64,000 nucleotides of DNA from a virus (lineage: Duplodnaviria > Caudoviricetes): IMG/VR virus record IMGVR_UViG_3300010163_000006, positions 91,672 through 155,671 of that record. The stretch is one strand, 5' to 3'. Positions 1,417 through 29,800 of this stretch are shown piece by piece (position 1 is the stretch's first letter; the number at the start of each line of letters is the position of its first letter). Made by a program: the position numbers and the translations under genes. Below the pieces are notes generated by a model. The model saw only the letters and a program-made list of their open reading frames with translations, ran no database searches and had not been told where the DNA came from.

Positions 1417-1451
1417 CAAAAAATAATCCCCCAAATATTTGGGGGATTATT
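1417..1451 (-). terminator. Intrinsic terminator closing pentamer array A
   Basis: Palindrome aataatcccccaaat/atttgggggattatt with a left-hand A-tract. Confidence 0.75.
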
Positions 1452-1456
1452 GTCTC

Positions 1457-1930
1457 TTCACCAAGCATCACAAGACTGAACCAAGCCTCACCATGACAGA
1501 ACTAAAATAAACTATACTTAGCTTCACCATCACTCTACATGACGTTGCCTCACCAGTACCAAACAACACAATACCTGACAATATCATACCATGACGATAC
1601 TTGGCTGAACCATCACGTTAATATACCCGACACCACTCAACTTTACCAATACACCACCCACTTCAATACACCTGACAACACTCTACCAATACATGACGGG
1701 ACTGAACGATGCCACACCAACACATTGCATCACCCCACGAAACATGACAAAGCCTTACATTCACTTAACTCTGCAACACTATGCGTAACCTTAACGTTAC
1801 TGTGCAACTCACAGCTATGCCTTTACTGAACATCAGGTCATGTAATACTATATACATACCATCACATGACCTGACTACACCACACTTTAATACGCCACAC
1901 TTCACTTTACCATGGCTGTGATATTTGTGG
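1457..1930 (-). repeat. Pentamer-periodic array A (NNNGY steps with NNNGGY punctuation), putative guide-RNA array
   Basis: Plus strand parses as gcatc acaag actga accaa gcctc accatg / acaga actaa aataa actat actta gcttc accatc ...; lies between the RAMP-like gene stop and a terminator. Confidence 0.85.
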
Positions 1931-1934
1931 CTGA

Positions 1935-2567
1935 TTAGTGTTCTGAAGCATTACCCCCGATTACATTTCCGTCGGCATCAAGCTCTTCCCAGACAAATTT
2001 ACCCTTTCCACTGTTGCGCCACTGACCCGTTCCGTGGTAGAATCCATAGTCCAACCATTCACGAACGAGTGTTTCATCTTCATCCACCATACACAGTACG
2101 GTGAATTCGTTAGTGGAGCCGACCGGCACGGTTTCTGAACATGCCAGTGAAACACGTTCACCCTGTGGTGTGTTGGCTCTTAACGGTCTCTGACACAACG
2201 TTATCTCACCATTAACGTTGATGACGGATTTGCGTTCCTTGATAAAGATCAGACCGTCTATCTGTTTCTTAAACGCTTTGATCTTTGATGAAGCGGTACC
2301 TTTAACCTTTTTGAGGAAACTACAGGTCTCCTTGAAGTAACCTCGCCACTGATAGTCGTAAATGATCAGATTTCCGTCATCGTCTCTCGGGAATACGGTT
2401 GTTCCCTTTTCAACAGTCGGATCAACACCGACAGATGCTACCTCATCATCGATTGTGGTTGCATCGGGTGACTTCGAAGCGATGTAGCTTCTGTAGATTT
2501 CCTGGTCATTGGTTGCTGTGCCAAGCAGCTCCTCGATAAATGTTACGCGTACTCTGATTTCTTTCAT
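1935..2567 (-). CDS. Stand-alone RAMP/Cas7-like RNA-binding protein
   Basis: N-terminal strand IRVRVTFIEELLG, YQWRGYFKE helix, SETVPVGS strand, and C-terminal glycine-rich loop GTGQWRNSGKGKF (GxGxxRxxGxGxF, RAMP signature); start ATG 2567 behind AAAGGAGGT. Confidence 0.75.
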   Translation of the reverse strand: MKEIRVRVTFIEELLGTATNDQEIYRSYIASKSPDATTIDDEVASVGVDPTVEKGTTVFPRDDDGNLIIYDYQWRGYFKETCSFLKKVKGTASSKIKAFKKQIDGLIFIKERKSVINVNGEITLCQRPLRANTPQGERVSLACSETVPVGSTNEFTVLCMVDEDETLVREWLDYGFYHGTGQWRNSGKGKFVWEELDADGNVIGGNASEH

Positions 2568-2670
2568 AGAAATCAACCTCCTTTAGATAAATAATAAGTA
2601 GTTTATGGATATCTCATTTCTGATATATCCATAATAATTAAATATATTTCAAAAATAAGAAAAATAGAAA

Positions 2671-2691
2671 GTCCGGGGATAATCCCCGGAC
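2671..2691 (-). terminator. Hairpin terminator
   Basis: gtccggggat-a-atccccggac. Confidence 0.7.
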
Positions 2692-2706
2692 ATGAAATTC
2701 TTCTAT

Positions 2707-3093
2707 TTATGGAGCCGGATATATGACAAAAGTTTTCAGACCTTTGATCTTGAACCCGCCGTCTTCTGTCGGTTCTCCGAACACTCTTGGGACGGCAATC
2801 AATTTGGGATTGTTTGACACAAATTCCTTGATCATTTTGTCAGATTGGTCAAATTCAACATCTATCCACCCACCAACAAATCCCATATCATAACCAGTTA
2901 TCACTCCTATGATATCATTTATATCAACTCTCAAATGTAAAATATCTACTGTTTTACAGTCTGTTCCCTTCACAACCTTCATACCAACCAAACCATGTGT
3001 AGATATATGTTTGTATAAGTCTTTAAATGATAGACATTCGTTGATTCTGACGGGAATGGTTTTCCTGATCTTCTTAGGGATCCTGACTTTCAT
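2707..3093 (-). CDS. Hypothetical protein between the RAMP-like gene and array B
   Basis: ORF 2707..3114; likely start ATG 3093 behind GGAAAGGAG. Confidence 0.65.
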   Translation of the reverse strand: MKVRIPKKIRKTIPVRINECLSFKDLYKHISTHGLVGMKVVKGTDCKTVDILHLRVDINDIIGVITGYDMGFVGGWIDVEFDQSDKMIKEFVSNNPKLIAVPRVFGEPTEDGGFKIKGLKTFVIYPAP

Positions 3094-3117
3094 TAATTTA
3101 TCACTCCTTTCCATATA

Positions 3118-3157
3118 ATAAAAAATAACCCCCGTAAGGTGGGAGGAGGTTATTTTT
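3118..3157 (-). terminator. Imperfect terminator closing array B
   Basis: aaaaataacc...ggttattttt inverted repeat around a GC-rich core. Confidence 0.5.
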
Positions 3158-3171
3158 CTTTAAGATATGTC

Positions 3172-4700
3172 GTTACCATTACTCTACAAGACCCAACTTT
3201 GATGAACCATTACTGAACCAAACCGCGCTTTGCCTTACAACACTTGGCATCGCCGCACCGTAACACCGCTATACTGGGCTGAACTATGCCTTTACGCAAC
3301 AGCACTATTCGACGCTACACCATAACTTCACAATACCCACGCGGTACAATGCGTTACAGGACATAGCCTTTACTGGTACCATTCGACACCTTACCTGCAC
3401 ATGACATCGCCACCTATCACAACACAACACCAATACAGAACAATACCGAACGCCACACTACCTTTACGATACATACGAACACGAAGCTCAATATTACTAT
3501 ACTTAACATTACCCGTTACGTGACCATGCGGCACCTGACCTTACCAAAACATTACTCTACGCCTCCTGGCTTTACCCAAACATTACGCTCGCAGCATTAC
3601 TGCACCATCACAGCACCATACGTAAACTGACTATACATTACCGATACAATACGAATCAGTACGGAACATCACGGAACCCATTACGTAACGTAACGCCACT
3701 TGACCGAACTGCACCCTCACAAAACTATCCCATACTGTACCATTAATGTACACTGCGTGACTAAACACGACTCTACCTGTACTTTACTATGAGCAACGTA
3801 TCTCCGCTCCGCTTTACCTTTACTAAGCATTACCTGGTATTGCTTAACCTTGCCTATACGATACCAAGCGTGGCATTTCTTCACCGCACCGTTTACTCTA
3901 CATTACTCGACTTCACTCCAACATTACCCTCACATGGCATCATAAGACCACACTTTACCTTTACGACACCTCACAGAACAGGACCAAACCATGCCTGAAC
4001 ATTACCTTTAGATCACAATACGCGACGATACTTCACCTTACCATTACCAGAGAAAACGTCACCATACCGATACCGCAACCATGCTTCACCTTACTTAACC
4101 CTTACTTGGCTTGGCGGAACAAAACTATACTATACCGTTACATAATCATACCGCACCCGGCCTTACCCATAACATCACAAAACTTTTCTGTACACTTCCT
4201 TTGCGGAAACTATGCCCGACACAGCATCACGACACTATACCGGAACGCCACGTCACTCTACGGTACACCACCATGCTATACCAGCACAGTGCATTACTTG
4301 ACATTGCTTTACCTTACCAATGCTGTACATCACAATACCATTACGAAACAATACCAGACTGCAACTCACCGCGCATCACCTATGCTAAACATTACGTTCA
4401 AGACCCCGCTTTACTGAACCTTGACAAAACCAAACAGTGCCTCACCGAAGCATTACTTGACATTGCTTGACCATACTTCACATCACCTTTACTGAACGTT
4501 ATGAGACAAAGCGTCACCTCACAGCACCATTACTTGGCAAAACTTCACGTGACACGACGATACTTCACCTTACCATTACCCAACATGACAATATGACACC
4601 ATGCGTTGCCGTTAGCCATACATAACACAACATGCCCTCACAACGCAATACCTTTACAGAACATAAAAGCTCAGCACTACACTTCACCGATACGTCACAT
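3172..4700 (-). repeat. Pentamer-periodic array B (about 1.5 kb), putative guide-RNA array
   Basis: Minus strand 4577->4532 reads AATGGT AAGGT GAAGT ATCGT CGTGT CACGT GAAGT TTTGC CAAGT; the same register recurs throughout; no convincing protein-like ORF. Confidence 0.9.
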
Positions 4701-4701
4701 A

Positions 4702-6006
4702 TTATTGTTGAGATAAAATGTCATAATATCGAGAGACGTCAAATCCCAGTTTGTTTAGCTTGTCTATAAATTCCTTATAAGACTTCCGACCCAGATTTCG
4801 TATCTTCATTATATCTTCAGGAGCAGTAGATAATATATCACCAATTGTACGGATTCCTCCGCATTTCAGGGAATTGAAAGTCCTGACACTTAAGTCGATT
4901 AAATCTATATCCGTATCCTCTGTAAATTCAGGTATCTTCCCATCAACATCGAGAGAAATTTCTTGTGTTCGCAGTACCCCATACTTAAGAATCATCAACG
5001 CTCTTTTGTCCGCGATAATAGCGTTCGATATTTCTTCAACTGATTGTCTGGTATCAATACCCAAAATATGGATCAGAAATTCGACAGTCTCGACGTCACA
5101 AAGGTTGTCATCGAGATATCTCATGTTGTATATGTTTTCATACACACGTCTACCCAAGCGTGTAGAATTCTTTTCAACAAGATGCCGCAGCTTGTTTTTG
5201 TGTTCTCCATAAACGATAGTCCTTAGTGCTCGGGCTTCTATTTGTCTTATTCTATCCGGAGTAAGATTGTATTCATTTGCTATCTCTGTCAGAGTCATGT
5301 GATCAATAAACCTCTTGTCAAGTATATCAATATCTCTAATTTGTCTAATTGATCTTTGAATAAAGAGCTCGATATCTGTAGTATCTGTTCCGATAATTTC
5401 AAGATCATCTGAAAAGAAATCCATACCGTCTACTGCTGCAGCGATTAAGTTCCATGGATAGAGACTATATTGCACGGGGTATATGTTGGATATCATCTTT
5501 TCCATCCGTGTGAAATAAGGATTCTCTTTGTAATGGTAGATCTTTGCACAAGCGATTATGTTCGCAAGTTCACGCACGGTCTTGTAGATGTGGTTGTTAT
5601 TTATCACCATCTCAAGTAGGTCTGGTTCTAACCATAATCGTGAGATTGTGACGTCGGGAGAAAACTTCGATAAACGGATATCCTCAGTTTTCCAGAACTT
5701 TGATTTCAGCTTATCGGTAGGGATACTAACCCTTTGGGATACTAATGTCATTCCTGTATGTTCACTAATTGATTTCGGAGAAACTCCTAATATATTCCTA
5801 TAACCAAAAGCGATTAATGTGTCGTCACCGATGGTTGACAAAAGATCGTCAATCTTTTTCATGAGTTTATCCTCATTGATTTCTTCAATATCATTCAGAG
5901 ACAATCCCGGGAGAAATCCCTTCTCGATCAATCTCGTTATGATTGTTTTCACATCGACACCGGCTTCGAATACGTGGTTGTTAATAACTAATTCGCTAAA
6001 CTTCAT
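4702..6006 (-). CDS. Protein with sigma-70 region-4 HTH and C-terminal RNA polymerase alpha-CTD domain
   Basis: MTLTEIANEYNLTPDRIRQIEARALRTI (sigma 4.2) and IDLIDLSVRTFNSLKCGGIRTIGDIL...IRNLGRKSYKEF (alpha-CTD); GGAAGGAG RBS. Confidence 0.8.
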   Translation of the reverse strand: MKFSELVINNHVFEAGVDVKTIITRLIEKGFLPGLSLNDIEEINEDKLMKKIDDLLSTIGDDTLIAFGYRNILGVSPKSISEHTGMTLVSQRVSIPTDKLKSKFWKTEDIRLSKFSPDVTISRLWLEPDLLEMVINNNHIYKTVRELANIIACAKIYHYKENPYFTRMEKMISNIYPVQYSLYPWNLIAAAVDGMDFFSDDLEIIGTDTTDIELFIQRSIRQIRDIDILDKRFIDHMTLTEIANEYNLTPDRIRQIEARALRTIVYGEHKNKLRHLVEKNSTRLGRRVYENIYNMRYLDDNLCDVETVEFLIHILGIDTRQSVEEISNAIIADKRALMILKYGVLRTQEISLDVDGKIPEFTEDTDIDLIDLSVRTFNSLKCGGIRTIGDILSTAPEDIMKIRNLGRKSYKEFIDKLNKLGFDVSRYYDILSQQ

Positions 6007-6293: not shown

Positions 6294-6369
6294 TGGTTGG
6301 GATGCCCAGATTCGAACTGGGGGAATTACGGGGTCAAGGCCCGCCGCATTACCGCTTTGCTACACCCCA
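6294..6369 (-). tRNA. tRNA-Gln(UUG)
   Basis: Cloverleaf: TGGGGTG/CATCCCA-ACCA, anticodon arm GCGGG-CCTTGAC-CCCGT, TTCGAAT. Confidence 0.8.
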
Positions 6370-6442
6370 ATTTACTTCCCTTTTGTATATTGGTTGCCTT
6401 TAAACTTATGACCCATTGCGTTTTGACGATACCACAATATTT

Positions 6443-6517
6443 TGGTGACGCGTATGAGGATCGAACTCACGTCACCGCCGTGAAAGGGCGGTGTCTTAAC
6501 CACTTGACTAACGCGCC
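6443..6517 (-). tRNA. tRNA-Glu(UUC)
   Basis: GGCGCGT/ACGCGTC-ACCA, CCGCC-CTTTCAC-GGCGG. Confidence 0.9.
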
Positions 6518-6521
6518 AGTT

Positions 6522-6596
6522 TGGAGGTCCCGTCCAGAGTTGAACTGGAGATCGTGGTGTTGCGGACCACTGTCTTAACCTCTTGACTACGGGATC
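6522..6596 (-). tRNA. tRNA-Cys(GCA)
   Basis: GTGGT-CCGCAAC-ACCAC anticodon arm, U73 discriminator (TCCA end). Confidence 0.8.
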
Positions 6597-6598
6597 AT

Positions 6599-6722
6599 GT
6601 GGATTAGATGTGTATTTTTAATGGACCGTTATATTCCACATTACCTCCTCCGTTGATACAGAGCTGCAGTGTGTCAACTTCTGGTGTTCTCGGATTTTAA
6701 ACTAATGATACACATAATCCAC
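6599..6722 (-). ncRNA. Unknown structured RNA, copy 1
   Basis: Terminal stem, 9-bp/9-nt hairpin at 6652-6678, sequence blocks shared with 7201-7307. Confidence 0.6.
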
Positions 6723-6724
6723 TT

Positions 6725-6802
6725 TGGTGGGATATGCTGGATTCGAACCAGCGTCATAACGCCGTGCACAACGTATACTTTTCCCCGCTAAAATAATATC
6801 CC
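6725..6802 (-). pseudogene. Degenerate tRNA (UGC/Ala-like loop)
   Basis: GGGATAT/ATATCCC-ACCA and GCTGG-TTCGAAT-CCAGC intact; anticodon loop irregular (GTGCAC); no G3:U70. Confidence 0.55.
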
Positions 6803-6805
6803 ATT

Positions 6806-6881
6806 TGGTGGATGGTGATGGAGTTGAACCACTATTCTCATTATCGTCGTGATAATGCACTTTCCTTAAGCTACATGCGTC
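6806..6881 (-). pseudogene. Highly degenerate tRNA-like element
   Basis: CCA end, GTGG-TTCAACT-CCAT T-arm-like hairpin, CATTATC/GATAATG hairpin; acceptor stem poorly paired. Confidence 0.4.
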
Positions 6882-7200
6882 ATTTTATATTTATACGTCT
6901 GCCAAGGGATCTACATACGGTGTACATGGAAATAGATCAAATATCCCTTTGTTCCAGTCATCAAACAGATCGTCTTTACTGATTGTCGGATTGCCTTCCC
7001 TTGCCATGATTGTTGAAAGAGAGCAATTGGTACACTATACGCATCCTATTACATATTTCTTATCTCCTTTTGACACTTCGCGTGTTACATATTTTACTTT
7101 ATCGGCAGAATTACACCGAGGACATGGATTGATATTCATGTATGCCATCCTTTACCAAGACATCTTTATGTAGTATGAATTTAAAAATATATAATAAACA

Positions 7201-7307
7201 AAATGTGTATCGGGGCTCGGGAAGCGACCCCTCCTCCTCACTCAATGCATAGCCATGGTACATTGAGGTCTGGTGTTCTCATTAACTTTAAACTATTAAC
7301 ACATTTC
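7201..7307 (-). ncRNA. Unknown structured RNA, copy 2
   Basis: Terminal stem aaatgtgt/acacattt, 9-bp/9-nt hairpin at 7241-7267, blocks shared with copy 1. Confidence 0.6.
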
Positions 7308-7387
7308 ATTTATTATTGTAATCGCCAACCCAGACGATCACCACATTCGCCACACCTGATGGTCTCCCTATCGAATGCATTCCTCGT

Positions 7388-7472
7388 TGGTGACTGAGGT
7401 GGGACTCGAACCCACATACCTTTCGATACGGGTACTTGAAGCCCGCGCGTCTGCCAATTCCGCCACTCAGGC
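7388..7472 (-). tRNA. tRNA-Leu(CAA)
   Basis: GGCGGAATTGGCAGAC D arm, TTCAAGT loop, long variable arm, GTGGG-TTCGAGT-CCCAC, ACCA. Confidence 0.85.
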
Positions 7473-8753: not shown

Positions 8754-10148
8754 TTAAGAAGACATAAGTCCAAGACAGATGGTCGACCAATCCATCAGAG
8801 GTAATTCGATCTTTTCGGTAACGTAGTTAGTTACACAAGAGAAGTGGAACTTTTCGAAATGCTGAACGATTCCATCTTCTTTACATCCAAGGAATAAAGT
8901 ATTCAGTTGGTCTCCATCAAAGTCCGCATTAAAACCGGGAAGTGGTTCTGGAGGTAAACTGATCGTATCATCATTTACCTTGAAACGACGTATCTTTGCA
9001 ATCTCAATAGAAGCAAAGTTGTTTGTCGGTTCTCTAAGGATCATGATCCATTGTTCTTTGTCGAGTATCTCTTGAAGGATATCGACTACCTCGGGATGAA
9101 TCTTATAATCTCTGACATACAGATATGCCTGTTCAAGAGTGAAGTTATATCTGACAGATAAGATGTGTGTTATCTTGTACTGGAATGCGGTAATACACAT
9201 TGGCAATGGCAGATCAACTTCATCGACGTTCAATGATATATCGAGGGTGATTACCGCACGACCAGAGAATGAAAACGTACCACCAACAATCTCTGATCTT
9301 ACGAAACCATCCTTCTTTGAAACCTCATTCGTTATCAGATGCTCAGCAGCTTCAACCCAATAATTCTGAATAAAGTTCAATGCCTGAATCGTTTCGATTG
9401 GTAAAGCCATGTCTTTCAACTTGCATTGAATCGAAACGATTTGTGAAAACCATTTATTGATCTTCGGGTAGAACATCGTCTCTGATGTCTTAGATACAGG
9501 ACGGAATGCTGTTGAGTAGATCGGGATCTTCGAAGTGAACACAGCTTCTTTCTCTTGGATCAATGTCGCAAGTTCCTCTGTTGATTTACCACAAGCGGTC
9601 AATACCTCTTCGAATCTTTGGTAAAATACATCGTGTCCAAGACCTTCGTAAATCTGTTTCGACTTGGGTATTTTCTTCCTGATATATGCGATGTCGTTTT
9701 GTGCAATACGACCTGTTTTTCGGTTCTTTTTGTTCTCTGCAAAGTTCGTATCATTCTCATTATAAGGAACAGAGAAATCGGCCTTATAGTCTCCGAGAAT
9801 ATATTTCAACATATTTACAGACAATACTCTCTTGAGCATTGAATAATAGATTGGTGATATAACTTTGTGTGGAGATATATCAACCCATCCAGTATATTTA
9901 AAGTTCAATGAGCGAAGAGTGATCTCAGAGTTACAACGTGGGCATACTCGGCCAATGATATCTTGACCGATGAATGCACCACAGTCGCATCTGTACTCAA
10001 CGTCCATGAACTTGGAAGAATTGATCAGTTGATCAACATTTACTGGAGCATACATATCTTCCTCTTCGTTGATTAAAAACCCATTGTGGGTAATCATGTC
10101 GATGATATACTCGTTCTCCAGATTTATTCTTTCAAGTGTGACGCCCAT
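8754..10148 (-). CDS. Phage multisubunit RNA polymerase beta' N-terminal subunit (catalytic)
   Basis: Zn-binding CDCG...CPRC, FSGRAVI, REP and catalytic FNADFDGDQL motifs. Confidence 0.9.
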   Translation of the reverse strand: MGVTLERINLENEYIIDMITHNGFLINEEEDMYAPVNVDQLINSSKFMDVEYRCDCGAFIGQDIIGRVCPRCNSEITLRSLNFKYTGWVDISPHKVISPIYYSMLKRVLSVNMLKYILGDYKADFSVPYNENDTNFAENKKNRKTGRIAQNDIAYIRKKIPKSKQIYEGLGHDVFYQRFEEVLTACGKSTEELATLIQEKEAVFTSKIPIYSTAFRPVSKTSETMFYPKINKWFSQIVSIQCKLKDMALPIETIQALNFIQNYWVEAAEHLITNEVSKKDGFVRSEIVGGTFSFSGRAVITLDISLNVDEVDLPLPMCITAFQYKITHILSVRYNFTLEQAYLYVRDYKIHPEVVDILQEILDKEQWIMILREPTNNFASIEIAKIRRFKVNDDTISLPPEPLPGFNADFDGDQLNTLFLGCKEDGIVQHFEKFHFSCVTNYVTEKIELPLMDWSTICLGLMSS

Positions 10149-26814: not shown

Positions 26815-29800
26815 GTGATTATGAATTACAATAAATGGTTCTATAATCAACATAAGTATCTGAAAAACATCCGCGATAACTCTGAGGGTTTTAATGATAC
26901 TAAGTGGGTTACTATCAACAAGCGTTACCAAATACTTGACGATATGAAATCCGAATTGCTTTCACAAGGACTATTGGTTCATGGTAACAATACTGGATTT
27001 GATAAACTTATTGATTTGATGGGTAGATCTAATTATACATTCGAAGATATCAATGATTCTTTAATTGATACATACAGGGTTTCATTGCATTTTGCAATGA
27101 GTAGAAACCTTGTTAATACTCATGCGGTTATGTTTCATTGTACCAATATGGATACCAAGAATGTTACTGCGGAGAAGTTCACTCATTACAGAATAATTGA
27201 TGCGCCTTTTAATCAATTACACTTTGGACACCGTGATGAGTTCATACGTCAAAAGCTCCAGGAAATGCATAATATCAGTAATGGTAATTATGTTGATATG
27301 CCCCGATTTAATTCCACTCAATTCACCAAGATCCTTGATTTCTCAATCATATGCACAGTCAATGGTTATTTTTGTAACGATTGTAAAGTTGCTATTGATG
27401 ATAAAGGTTTTAAATTCAAAGTAGGATGGCCTTATGCTTCGGATGTTGATTTCATTGTATACAAATTGGATCATGGTAGAATGATTTCCAATAACATATC
27501 ACCAGATTATGTTAAGAAGGGATTGATTCCTTATGACGTACTTGGTGGTGTTGGTAAAGAGATGCTCGGATTAAAATGCATCATAAATGTGTTTGATCCT
27601 TTGTTTATCAAGACAACTTCATCTGTTCCTAACTTCGGTATATTCACCGAAAAGGGATTGGAGATAAGGAACTTACAAAGAGCCACATCTGATATGATTG
27701 ATAGATTGTCGTCATCAAATGTGACCGTTGATGTATATGCCTTGAAATTCTTTCATGAAATACCCAACTTGTATCCCGCTATCAATTATTACGATATAAT
27801 GGATACAAGGAATGTGTATGACGAAAAGAGCGAAAGCATTAAAACAACCGAGGGACATAACGTTGTCGCAACACCATCGAAGAACATAAACAAACTTGAA
27901 GTATGTACACCACCGATATGTCTTGATCGAGATGTATCATATTCATTTGATATCATCACAAGGTGTTTATCCATGTATGATGACATGATGTCATATGAAA
28001 GTGATTTAATCCGTGTTGGACAAGAATTGCTATATGGCAACCAAGATTCCTTCATGGATACATTCAAACCTATATTGCAGAAAATCTATTCTGGATTGTT
28101 GTCAATGTATAAGATCTATGAACAAGGAAGCATCATAACTTCATTGATTGAACCAGAACAACTTGGGCTGTTCTCCGACCTTTTGTCAAAAGTCCATAAG
28201 ATTTCAAACATGACAGACTTCCGTCATTCTCAGAATTATTCCTTCGATGAATTATACGGAGAAAATTATAGAAACACGGTTAAGACTATAACAGACCCAT
28301 TCAGGAATACAGCATTACTACCATTCGCATGCATGAAATCAATCAAGAACAATTTCTTTGTTGATAACAACACAACTCGATTCAATCGACCAATATCGGA
28401 GCAGTGTTTCATTGCACTCCGATACCATACAAATGATGGTTGTTGGTTGTTTGATTATCCGGACATCAAACATTTCCATGGGATCGGAAACACATTCTAT
28501 GTCGATTCGAATCTCAAGGGTGATGAGATATTCAAGTTCTTTGTTCTTTACAGTGATACCGAAGCTCCTGATGAAAAGGATATTGAACATATGGATCTTA
28601 ATACCGTATTGGATTTTGATTTGTTTTCTAAGGAAATAGAGAAACATATCGGGATGATTCGTTACTGGGATGCGGAATGTCGGTTGATGAAGTTATCAAA
28701 AATCATGTATAAGAAATACAATGATGAGACATGTGTTCAAGTATTATCAAAGATTCTTAAACGGAAAATATCCGGAGATAACATTCTCAAATTATATCCT
28801 TCTGATATAAACTATGAAGAATCAAATGTCTCTTCAGATAGTTGGGAATCTTATGATGAAAACACTGAACGAGGTCCTTTCTCAATAAATTTCCTGTTTT
28901 ATACCCTCTCTTTATTGAATAATAATGAGGATAAACTCCAATCGTATTTCTATAGATATCTTACTCATAATAAGTATCATAATAGATATACTGATATTGA
29001 TATCTCGTCCATCATTGACAATGAGAGATATCCCATCAGTTATTCTCAATACACAATATCTCCATCAAGAATCCCCGACAGTTGTGCGAAACCGGATGTA
29101 AAGATATTCGCATATTATGGATTACCATTGATATTGGATTCAAAAGGAAGTAATCTGTATGAACCGTACCGATATGTCTTGAACGTTTATGATCCAGATA
29201 CTAAGTATCCCATGATATCCGAAAACGATATTGATGGGTCTTTCTATGTTCAATATGACAATATCACAGATTATGCTGGACGGGTTGTTTCTTATCATAA
29301 CAATATTCAAATCGGACATCTGATGACATTATACCTGACAGATCTTTACAACTACATTTCTGAATTACAGACAAATTACAAAACAACATTCAACCAGTCA
29401 ACCGTGATTGAGTCTGCTATAAACACAATGAACGAACGAATTTCAACCATCAGAACACATATACTTGATAACGGACTTGATGATATTGATGGGGTTTCAT
29501 CTTTTGGTAATGCTGTTGATATCGTTATCAATGATAATGAATTTATTCGTAAATTGAATGAAATGAAATCATTGATTGATTCAATCGATGTAATCAGGTA
29601 TAACAATACAAATTCATCAATTCGCGTGTTCATAAATACGCATGTACTTGGTACGTTAAAACGTGCGTACGTTAATTTTGGTTTCAATAACAATATTAAC
29701 AAACGTGCACGTATGCTGTACATACACCTGAAGAAGATCAATGAACCAATGAATGCATACACATTCAAGAAATGGTTAACTGATATAGATCTTCATACAT

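What the first reader, a model, noticed from the sequence alone, without database searches (positions are those of the whole stretch)
1417..4700. Candidate non-CRISPR RNA-guided system: lone Cas7/RAMP-like gene plus pentamer-coded RNA arrays
Seen: a 210-aa protein with a RAMP-type Gly-rich loop (GTGQWRNSGKGKF) is followed immediately, on the same strand and before a terminator, by about 470 nt of 5-nt periodic sequence. A second array of about 1.5 kb with the same grammar lies 600 nt upstream. On the transcribed (minus) strand each step is NNN-G-Y: GY is nearly fixed and the rest varies, so the arrays carry information rather than being a satellite. No CRISPR direct repeats, cas1/2, cas5/6 or nuclease genes occur in the window. 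Established: Cas7-family RAMPs polymerise along guide RNA with a fixed nucleotide step. Inference: each subunit grips the conserved GY and displays the variable bases, giving a discontinuous targeting code, probably nuclease-free silencing of competing phages/MGEs or host genes. From memory this resembles recently reported VIPR-type systems (Cas7-like protein with GGY/NN repeat RNAs); I cannot verify that here, and this locus has a looser NGY consensus.
Basis: partly seen in the sequence, partly recalled or inferred. Interest (0 to 1): 0.97.

Follow-up and report, generated by a model that had tools for sequence, protein, structure and literature searches.

The report
Phage VIPR guide-RNA system, punctuated arrays
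This 155-kb phage carries a VIPR system, a CRISPR-related RNA-guided DNA silencer first described in 2026 preprints: one small Cas7-like gene plus two very long arrays of five-base guide units. It is a new example of a known kind with an unusual guide format.

Summary
A 210-aa gene (1935-2567, minus strand) is followed by a 474-nt array and preceded, 598 nt upstream, by a 1536-nt array. Both are 5-nt units G-Y-N-N-N on the gene's strand. They are the only strongly periodic tracts in the 155,671-bp phage genome.

The protein models as a single-domain Cas7-type RAMP. Its family aligns over its full length with the family of the published SUSP1 Vipr (hhalign E 2e-5). Of 80 homologous loci, 78 have a 5-nt periodic array abutting the gene.

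VIPR is described in bioRxiv 10.64898/2026.04.26.720920 and .720927, and relaxed YNNNG/NNNNG repeats and "staggered" arrays are mentioned there.

Points added here:
- The arrays have no 3' tails. A semi-conserved 6-nt delimiter (G-Y-R-A-N-G) cuts them into about 65-70 modules, mostly 31 or 36 nt.
- The G-loop residue that reads the first G in SUSP1 (Asp177) is Gln here, matching the loss of that G.
- The variable dinucleotides have the composition of codon positions 1-2 in sense orientation.
- The fifth base evolves fastest.

No target was validated. This scan has already noted VIPR-like loci in over 100 other genomes. Verdict: a new member of a known kind.

The parts
1935..2567 (-). vipr gene: 210-aa single-domain RAMP, with G-loop GTGQWRNSGKG at residues 179-189 and a thumb hairpin at about residues 123-147
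   Evidence: ORF. AF2 mean pLDDT 83.7. Foldseek top hits are all Csm3/Cas7, E about 1e-7. VIA-align Z up to 11.2. hhalign to the SUSP1 Vipr family gives E 2e-5 over 183 columns.
1452..1925 (-). Array 1: 92 units of G-Y-N-N-N directly after the vipr stop codon, probably co-transcribed with it, in about 14 modules
1833..1874 (-). 19-bp imperfect hairpin inside array 1, the only place in array 1 where the GY pattern breaks
   Evidence: Inverted repeat I2 and the MFE fold. Function unknown.
1422..1451 (-). Intrinsic-terminator-like hairpin closing the vipr plus array 1 unit
   Evidence: Perfect 15-nt arms followed by a T run.
3165..4700 (-). Array 2: 296 units of the same grammar in about 53 modules. 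It starts directly after the stop codon of the upstream 434-aa gene.
3129..3146 (-). Terminator-like hairpin closing array 2
2707..3114 (-). 135-aa ORF between array 2 and vipr, with its own ribosome-binding site and terminator (2691-2671). Membership in the system is not shown.
   Evidence: No Pfam, PHROG, NCBIfam or PADLOC hit. No homologue in 85 other family loci. The Atlas model resembles a prohead-protease-type domain, TM 0.63-0.66.

Best explanation
The locus is a VIPR (Viral Interference Programmable Repeat) system of a divergent, mostly gut-Clostridia-phage clade.

Proposed mechanism, inferred by analogy with the SUSP1 system:
- The two arrays are transcribed from the vipr strand. Array 1 is transcribed with vipr. 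Array 2 is its own unit or the 3' part of the upstream gene's transcript.
- Vipr protomers polymerise along the RNA, one per 5-nt unit. Each clamps the G and the pyrimidine with the G-loop Trp183/Arg184 and the thumb.
- The base that is the first G in canonical GGY is not read, because SUSP1 Asp177 is Gln182 here and His17 has no aligned equivalent.
- The two following bases are displayed to pair with DNA, with every third target base skipped.
- The displayed dinucleotides look like codon positions 1-2 in the sense orientation. The guides would therefore match the coding strand of protein-coding genes and pair with the template DNA strand, not with mRNA. The outcome would be nuclease-free transcriptional silencing of a rival mobile element or of host genes.
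- A semi-conserved 6-nt unit (G-Y-R-A-N-G, extra G) delimits modules of mostly 5-7 units. These are most likely the individual guides or filament boundaries of a tail-less 'staggered' array.

Shown here: the fold, the family relationship, the array grammar, the family-wide gene-array linkage, the delimiter and its conservation, and the composition signals.

Inferred: transcription and processing, RNA binding, the skip rule, silencing, and the identity of the targets.
For: - **Fold:** Foldseek and VIA-align both place the AF2 model among Csm3/Cas7/Cmr4 backbones. A profile search of PDB sequences hits the Csm4 G-loop at E 0.004 and a type VII Cas7 at E 0.09.
- **Relationship to Vipr:** I located SUSP1 Vipr (KT454805 28474..29061) by its flanking GGYNN arrays. 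The window family and the SUSP1 family align collinearly over 183 columns, E 2e-5, probability 77%. They share G-x-G-[D/Q]-W-R.
- **Linkage:** 78 of 80 homologous loci in genome contigs have a 5-nt periodic tract abutting the gene. The 80%-identical relative has a 1.5-kb array of identical grammar.
- **Delimiter:** 6-nt units make up 12-20% of units in nearly all family arrays. The extra base is G in about 0.9 of cases. The delimiter's N5 is A in 0.72 against 0.32 elsewhere. The extra base is the most conserved position in homologous array segments, 2% substitutions.
- **Position classes in homologous segments:** G 4%, position 2 12%, N4 15%, N5 17%, fifth base 21%.
- **Codon-like composition:** N4 and N5 base frequencies match the phage's codon positions 1 and 2. 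The NN dinucleotide spectrum correlates at r = 0.89 with sense codon positions 1-2 against 0.39 for antisense. It fits that model about 24 bits better than genome dinucleotides.
- **Natural contrast:** locus L023 carries both a Q-type vipr with a punctuated array and a canonical-type vipr (G-loop GIGEWRPE; E 2.9e-13 to the SUSP1 family) with an unpunctuated GGYNN array.
- **Context:** an IMG/VR virus record with direct terminal repeats, no Cas1 and no CRISPR-like repeats. The arrays do not match the phage's own genome above shuffled controls, as the preprint reports for its own systems.
Against: - The profile-profile link to published Vipr is moderate (probability 77%). A single-sequence comparison is weak (E 0.05), and the family profile found nothing in the SUSP1 genome.
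- There is no conserved structured 3' tail and no conserved accessory (vap) gene, unlike the characterised type II systems.
- Modules of 5-7 units specify only 10-14 bases, which is short for unique targeting in a bacterial genome.
- No target was validated. Two 10-unit patterns gave no IMG/VR hit. The few hits obtained stand alone on their contigs, and one lies in an ecologically implausible phage.
- No expression data could be obtained.
Confidence: 0.85

Rival explanations
1. The arrays are not panels of many short guides. They are long scaffolds on which the protein forms extended filaments, for example a decoy or sponge that soaks up a rival element's Vipr, or a structural or regulatory ribonucleoprotein. 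The variable bases would then carry little targeting information.
For: The arrays are 0.47 and 1.5 kb without tails or obvious processing structures. No target was found. The third VIPR preprint describes vrRNAs being used as decoys between elements (abstract and passages).
Against: N4N5 show a codon-like, strand-specific composition. They evolve more slowly than the fifth base. This argues that they carry selected information. The delimiter is conserved across the family, which suits unit boundaries.
Confidence: 0.07
2. It is an orphan CRISPR-type Cas7 that binds RNA targets, as type III backbones do, rather than double-stranded DNA.
For: The closest solved folds are type III and type VII Cas7 subunits, which bind RNA targets.
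Against: There is no CRISPR array and no Cas1, and the gene stands alone. The family is closer in profile to Vipr (E 2e-5 over the full length) than to any Cas protein (a G-loop-only hit at E 0.004). The guide dinucleotides resemble the sense strand of codons, so they would be identical to mRNAs, not complementary.
Confidence: 0.05
3. The tracts are DNA-level features, such as a satellite, protein-binding iterons or a recombination hotspot, that happen to sit beside the gene.
For: Segmental duplications occur inside the arrays. This is typical of tandem-repeat DNA.
Against: Only two of five positions are fixed and the rest are information-rich. The fixed G lies on the gene's strand in 70 of 93 family arrays. 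Each array is closed by a terminator on that strand. Linkage to the gene holds in 78 of 80 loci across very different phages.
Confidence: 0.02

Closest known systems
VIPR systems (Vipr protein plus vrRNA), described in bioRxiv 10.64898/2026.04.26.720920 with structures in 10.64898/2026.04.26.720927. The variants with YNNNG/NNNNG repeats and 'staggered' arrays are mentioned in the methods and in the fig. S18 legend.
   Same: A small stand-alone single-RRM RAMP with G-loop and thumb. Phage-borne. No cas genes or CRISPR array. Flanking arrays of 5-nt units with a fixed G-pyrimidine core and hypervariable bases. No self-targeting detected. Codon-like guide composition consistent with the published wobble-skip logic.
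   Different: The first G of GGY is free. There is no conserved 3' tail. The arrays are 0.47 and 1.5 kb, about 388 units, rather than vrRNAs of 9-16 units. A 6-nt G-Y-R-A-N-G delimiter occurs every 5-7 units or so. I could not see the preprint's figures or tables, so I cannot tell whether this clade is one of its seven types or whether its 'staggered' arrays are the same thing.
Type II VIPR of Escherichia phage SUSP1 (Vipr = KT454805 28474..29061; vap1 = 28031..28471)
   Same: Collinear profile alignment. G-loop G-x-G-[D/Q]-W-R, with Trp and Arg conserved. The gene is flanked by guide arrays on its own strand.
   Different: SUSP1 has strict GGYNN units, 11-15 units per vrRNA, a roughly 45-nt pseudoknot tail and a vap1 partner. 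Here Asp177 is Gln182 and His17 has no aligned counterpart. There is no tail and no conserved partner.
Non-canonical VIPR arrays found by entropy periodicity (bioRxiv 10.64898/2026.10.21.760802: WGT/NN, TGH/NN and similar motifs)
   Same: The window's units read about W-G-T/NN when phased as in that paper. Vipr-like folds sit next to the arrays.
   Different: That text, as far as I read it, does not mention delimiters or kilobase-long arrays.
Type III / type VII CRISPR Cas7 backbone subunits (Csm3, Cmr4, type VII Cas7)
   Same: The best structural matches, and the same G-loop signature.
   Different: Those bind 6 nt per subunit on crRNAs cut from CRISPR repeats, and they work inside multi-protein effectors. 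None of that context is present here.

Membership tests
VIPR | Vipr protein: a minimal single-RRM RAMP with a glycine-rich loop and a thumb | tested here: met
   AF2 model, pLDDT 83.7. Foldseek top hits are all Cas7/Csm3, probability 1.00. VIA-align Z 11.2-8 for 25 RAMP chains. G-loop at residues 179-189. Beta-hairpin at 123-147.
VIPR | Sequence relationship to published Vipr proteins (the SUSP1 / X1U2U4 family) | tested here: met
   hhalign of the 36-sequence family alignment against the 27-sequence SUSP1-family alignment: E 2.1e-5, probability 76.8%, 183 collinear columns. This is moderate, not strong; against the single SUSP1 sequence E is 0.05.
VIPR | Tandem pentanucleotide repeats with a fixed GGY-type core and variable NN, flanking vipr on its strand | tested here: met
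   G 0.87-0.95 and Y 0.96 in 388 units. This is the relaxed YNNNG form named in the preprint's methods. The linkage holds in 78 of 80 homologous loci.
VIPR | Not part of a CRISPR-Cas locus; viral context | tested here: met
   No interspaced repeats and no Cas1. The record is an IMG/VR virus record with direct terminal repeats, with phage RNA-polymerase and tRNA genes nearby.
VIPR | Residues that clamp GGY in SUSP1 (H17, D177 for G1; R138, W178 for G2; R179 for Y) | tested here: inconclusive
   W183 and R184 align with W178 and R179. D177 aligns with Q182, which is nearly invariant in this family. H17 falls in a gap. The thumb alignment is unreliable. The pattern fits loss of G1 reading, but it rests on a profile alignment.
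VIPR type II (SUSP1-like) | vrRNAs of 9-16 GGYNN units, each ending in a conserved structured 3' tail | tested here: not met
   There is no recurring tail. Repeat families inside the arrays are only 60-80% alike and lie in register with the pentamers. Modules of mostly 31 or 36 nt are bounded by a 6-nt unit. SUSP1 control arrays show the tails.
VIPR | Accessory vap gene in an operon with vipr | tested here: not met
   The 135-aa and 434-aa neighbours have no homologue in 85 family loci. Clustering of neighbouring ORFs finds no gene shared by most loci. The preprint says that some systems are stand-alone genes.
VIPR | Arrays expressed as small RNAs that co-purify with Vipr | not testable with these tools
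VIPR | DNA recognition by NN pairing with a 1-nt skip | tested here: inconclusive
   No skip rule gave an excess of matches over shuffled guides in the phage genome or in 723 kb of family loci. Indirect support: NN matches sense codon positions 1-2, and the fifth base is the least constrained position.
CRISPR-Cas class 1 (type III/VII Cas7) | A CRISPR repeat-spacer array and partner cas genes (Cas5/Cas10/Cas6, Cas1-Cas2) | tested here: not met
   No Cas family was hit by the locus neighbours that I scanned.

The most novel reading that the evidence does not exclude
This Q-type clade uses a guide format not yet characterised. It has tail-less, kilobase-long arrays in which a minimal 6-nt delimiter (G-Y-R-A-N-G) replaces the structured tail and chains some 65-70 very short guides (5-7 units, 10-14 read bases) head to tail. 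A G-loop Asp-to-Gln change has freed the first repeat position. If so, this would be the most compact guide-array design known. It would also give a direct residue-to-repeat rule for re-engineering Vipr specificity.
Probability: 0.2. Interest if true: 0.55.

Novelty: new member of a known kind. Interest (0 to 1): 0.33.

Why it matters
VIPR is a months-old discovery, and only type II systems have been characterised in detail.

- This locus and its roughly 5,700 metagenomic homologues show that a very abundant gut and rumen phage clade uses a relaxed repeat, no tail and a short delimiter.
- It packs an unusually large repertoire, about 388 units, into one phage.
- The Asp-to-Gln change in the G-loop goes with loss of the first G. 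One prophage carries both a Q-type and a canonical system, each with its own array type. Together these give a testable structure-to-code rule.

None of this changes the concept. The class, the relaxed motifs and probably the array style are already in print.

Tried and rejected
- **Curated libraries:** Pfam, PHROGs, NCBIfam and PADLOC do not recognise the protein, and NCBIfam and PADLOC do not recognise SUSP1 Vipr either. The family profile found nothing in the SUSP1 genome.
- **Self-targeting:** windows of 7 and 10 units under skip rules 0-3 gave no excess over shuffled guides in the 155-kb genome.
- **Cross-targeting among 85 family loci plus this genome:** exact 6-8-unit seeds gave no excess.
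- **IMG/VR pattern scans:** two 10-unit NN-skip patterns gave 0 hits. A 9-unit pattern gave 2 hits, in giant-virus-like contigs, about the number expected by chance.
- **Contiguous 21-mer, first attempt:** a 21-mer from the module at 4573-4539 hit one contig in frame and in sense orientation. That contig is a 53% GC phage whose nearest matches are environmental and Gammaproteobacteria-type phage records. Apart from one weaker 6-unit match expected by chance, no other module matches it. I treat the hit as probably chance, with about 0.06 expected per query by my estimate.
- **Contiguous 21-mer, second attempt:** the paralogous module gave 0 hits.
- **Metagenome scan:** a 10-unit pattern gave 4 hits, about as expected by chance. 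One lies in a RecB-like ORF of a 38% GC contig, with 6 of 10 fifth-base matches. No other module converges on it.
- **Fifth base as a copy of the target's wobble base:** TAA/TAG depletion has the same odds ratio as the genome-wide trinucleotide bias (0.53 in both). Only TGA depletion is array-specific, 0.58 against 1.02. The fifth base evolves fastest. I rejected this as the main reading, and the TGA signal is unexplained.
- **One extra nucleotide per six-subunit helical turn:** unlikely, because module lengths range from 11 to 51 nt.
- **The 135-aa neighbour as a vap:** no support. The single-sequence AF2 model was unusable, pLDDT 39.6.
Full report
**What is there**

On the minus strand the order of features is as follows.
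- A 434-aa gene lies at 6006-4702. It is a fusion of sigma-70 region 4 and the RNA polymerase alpha C-terminal domain.
- Array 2 follows at 4700-3165, starting directly after that gene's stop codon.
- A terminator-like hairpin lies at 3146-3129.
- A 135-aa ORF lies at 3114-2707, with its own ribosome-binding site.
- A second terminator lies at 2691-2671.
- The 210-aa gene lies at 2567-1935.
- Array 1 follows at 1925-1452.
- A perfect 15-bp hairpin terminator lies at 1451-1422.

The record is a 155,671-bp IMG/VR virus genome with direct terminal repeats and 38% GC.

**The arrays are real**

- Lag-5 autocorrelation is 0.43-0.44, against about 0.25 in flanking genes.
- In the whole genome only these two tracts are strongly periodic; one further 250-nt window is borderline.
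- Segmentation gives 92 and 296 units of G-Y-N-N-N. G is 0.87-0.95 and Y is 0.96, mostly T. The other three positions are variable.
- About 15% of units are 6 nt long, nearly always with an extra G. These units cut the arrays into modules, most often 31 or 36 nt long.
- The 6-nt unit is itself semi-conserved. In the window it reads G-T-A-A-W-G, followed by G-T-R. Over 1,262 instances across the family it reads G-C-R-A-N-G, followed by G-[C/A]-R. Its fourth base is A in 0.72, against 0.32 in ordinary units.
- There is no recurring tail sequence. Array 1 has one 19-bp hairpin where the pattern breaks.

**The protein**

- It has no hit in Pfam, PHROGs, NCBIfam or PADLOC.
- It has about 5,700 metagenomic homologues in the 90%-clustered search, and 1,680 clusters at 50% identity. 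None of the listed homologues has a functional name.
- With a 27-sequence alignment, AlphaFold2 gives mean pLDDT 83.7.
- Foldseek against the PDB returns only Cas7-family chains at the top: Csm3, type VII Cas7 and Cas7-11, at E about 1e-7.
- An independent all-against-representatives structural search gives Z 11.2-8 for 25 RAMP chains.
- A sequence profile hits the Csm4 G-loop at E 0.004.

**Link to published VIPR**

VIPR is described in three 2026 preprints. Their main points are as follows.
- A roughly 20-kDa Vipr RAMP polymerises on vrRNAs made of GGY/NN pentamers.
- The NN bases pair with double-stranded DNA, skipping every third base.
- The systems are mostly phage-borne and silence rival elements.
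- Seven types are named, with relaxed repeats (NNNGG, YNNNG, NNNNG) and with staggered or ribozyme-interspersed arrays.

I located the SUSP1 locus from its annotation and confirmed its GGYNN arrays with tails. The SUSP1 Vipr family and the window's family align collinearly over 183 columns, at E 2.1e-5 and probability 77%. This is far better than any Cas match.

In that alignment SUSP1 W178 and R179, which hold G2 and the pyrimidine, correspond to W183 and R184. D177, which reads G1, corresponds to Q182, which is nearly invariant in this family. H17, the other G1 contact, falls in a gap. That fits the free first position of the repeat here. This is an inference from an alignment, not a test.

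**Family-wide linkage**

- Of 80 homologous loci from GTDB genomes, 78 have a periodic tract abutting the gene, usually starting at its stop codon. Most are Oscillospiraceae, Ruminococcaceae and other Clostridia MAGs.
- The two exceptions have the gene at a contig end.
- Arrays in these loci are typically 300-900 nt.
- The 80%-identical relative, on a 243-kb contig, has a 1.5-kb array with the same grammar and delimiters.
- More distant members relax the second position too, giving G-[C/A/T]-N-N-N. They keep the delimiter at 12-20% of units.
- No neighbouring gene is conserved across the loci. The window's 135-aa and 434-aa genes have no counterpart elsewhere.
- Locus L023 holds two systems side by side. 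One is a Q-type gene with a punctuated array. The other is a canonical-type gene with a GGYNN array almost free of 6-nt units. Its G-loop is GIGEWRPE, and it matches the SUSP1 family at E 2.9e-13.

**What the variable bases say**

- The base composition of unit positions 3, 4 and 5 closely matches the phage's codon positions 1, 2 and 3.
- The N4N5 dinucleotide spectrum correlates at 0.89 with sense codon positions 1-2 and at 0.39 with antisense.
- It fits the sense model about 24 bits better than genome dinucleotide frequencies.
- In 38 homologous array segments, the substitution frequencies are: G 4%, position 2 12%, N4 15%, N5 17%, fifth base 21%, delimiter extra base 2%.

The fifth base is therefore the least constrained position, and the delimiter is the most constrained. 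I read this as support for the published logic: NN is read and the wobble base is skipped. It also supports DNA rather than mRNA targets, because the guides resemble the coding strand.

A partial depletion of stop-like triplets is mostly explained by genome-wide trinucleotide bias. The exception is TGA, which I leave unexplained.

**Targets**

None was validated.
- There is no self-match above controls, and none among family loci.
- Five pattern scans of IMG/VR and one of JGI metagenomes gave zero hits or chance-level numbers.
- The two most suggestive hits stand alone on their contigs. One is a 21/21 in-frame match in a 53% GC phage with environmental-type relatives. The other is a 20/20 NN match in a RecB-like ORF.
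- Expression data could not be obtained.

**Verdict**

The system belongs to a kind that is already published, including its relaxed repeat. This scan has logged similar loci in more than 100 genomes, among them a 277-kb phage with the same GY+NNN format. The features specific to this clade are the tail-less kilobase arrays, the conserved 6-nt delimiter and the Gln G-loop. They are worth a line in a VIPR survey and suggest clean experiments, but they do not make it a new class.

Noticed in passing
window 6294-7472 (-): A tRNA cluster (Gln, Glu, Cys, Leu). ARAGORN also calls a tRNA at 6725-6802 with an 8-nt anticodon loop ('tgca'), and Rfam also scores it as a tRNA (43.6 bits). It could be a frameshift-suppressor-like tRNA or a miscall.
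   Followed up: no
window 4702-6006 (-): A 434-aa protein that fuses sigma-70 region 4 with an RNA polymerase alpha C-terminal domain. Its stop codon abuts array 2, so the array may be the 3' part of its transcript. It has no homologue beside other family vipr genes.
   Followed up: partly
window 8754-10148 (-): A 464-aa ORF with the NADFDGD motif of the RNA polymerase beta' subunit. The phage appears to encode its own split multisubunit RNA polymerase.
   Followed up: no
L023:4001-6950 (Eubacteriales MAG contig JAZNPB010000108.1): Two different VIPR systems in tandem in one prophage region. One is a Q-type gene with a punctuated relaxed array. The other is a canonical-type gene (G-loop GIGEWRPE) with a GGYNN array without delimiters. 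An HNH-like ORF overlaps the end of the first gene.
   Followed up: partly
L097:3951-3979 (-), metagenome contig Ga0315905_10006823: The 10-unit module at window 3258-3208 matches a RecB-like ORF in frame at all 20 NN positions and at 6 of 10 fifth bases. The number of hits in that scan was about what chance predicts, and no other module matches the contig.
   Followed up: partly
window arrays and L004:6935-8088: Segmental duplications occur inside the arrays. In the window, 4579-4550 resembles 4047-4018 and differs at a fifth base. In L004, two blocks of about 60 nt are duplicated. The arrays seem to grow by duplication and divergence.
   Followed up: partly
family arrays (98 arrays, 6,390 clean units): A after TG at the fifth position (the triplet TGA) is depleted in the arrays (odds ratio 0.58) but not in the surrounding genomes (1.02). 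This is unexplained.
   Followed up: partly
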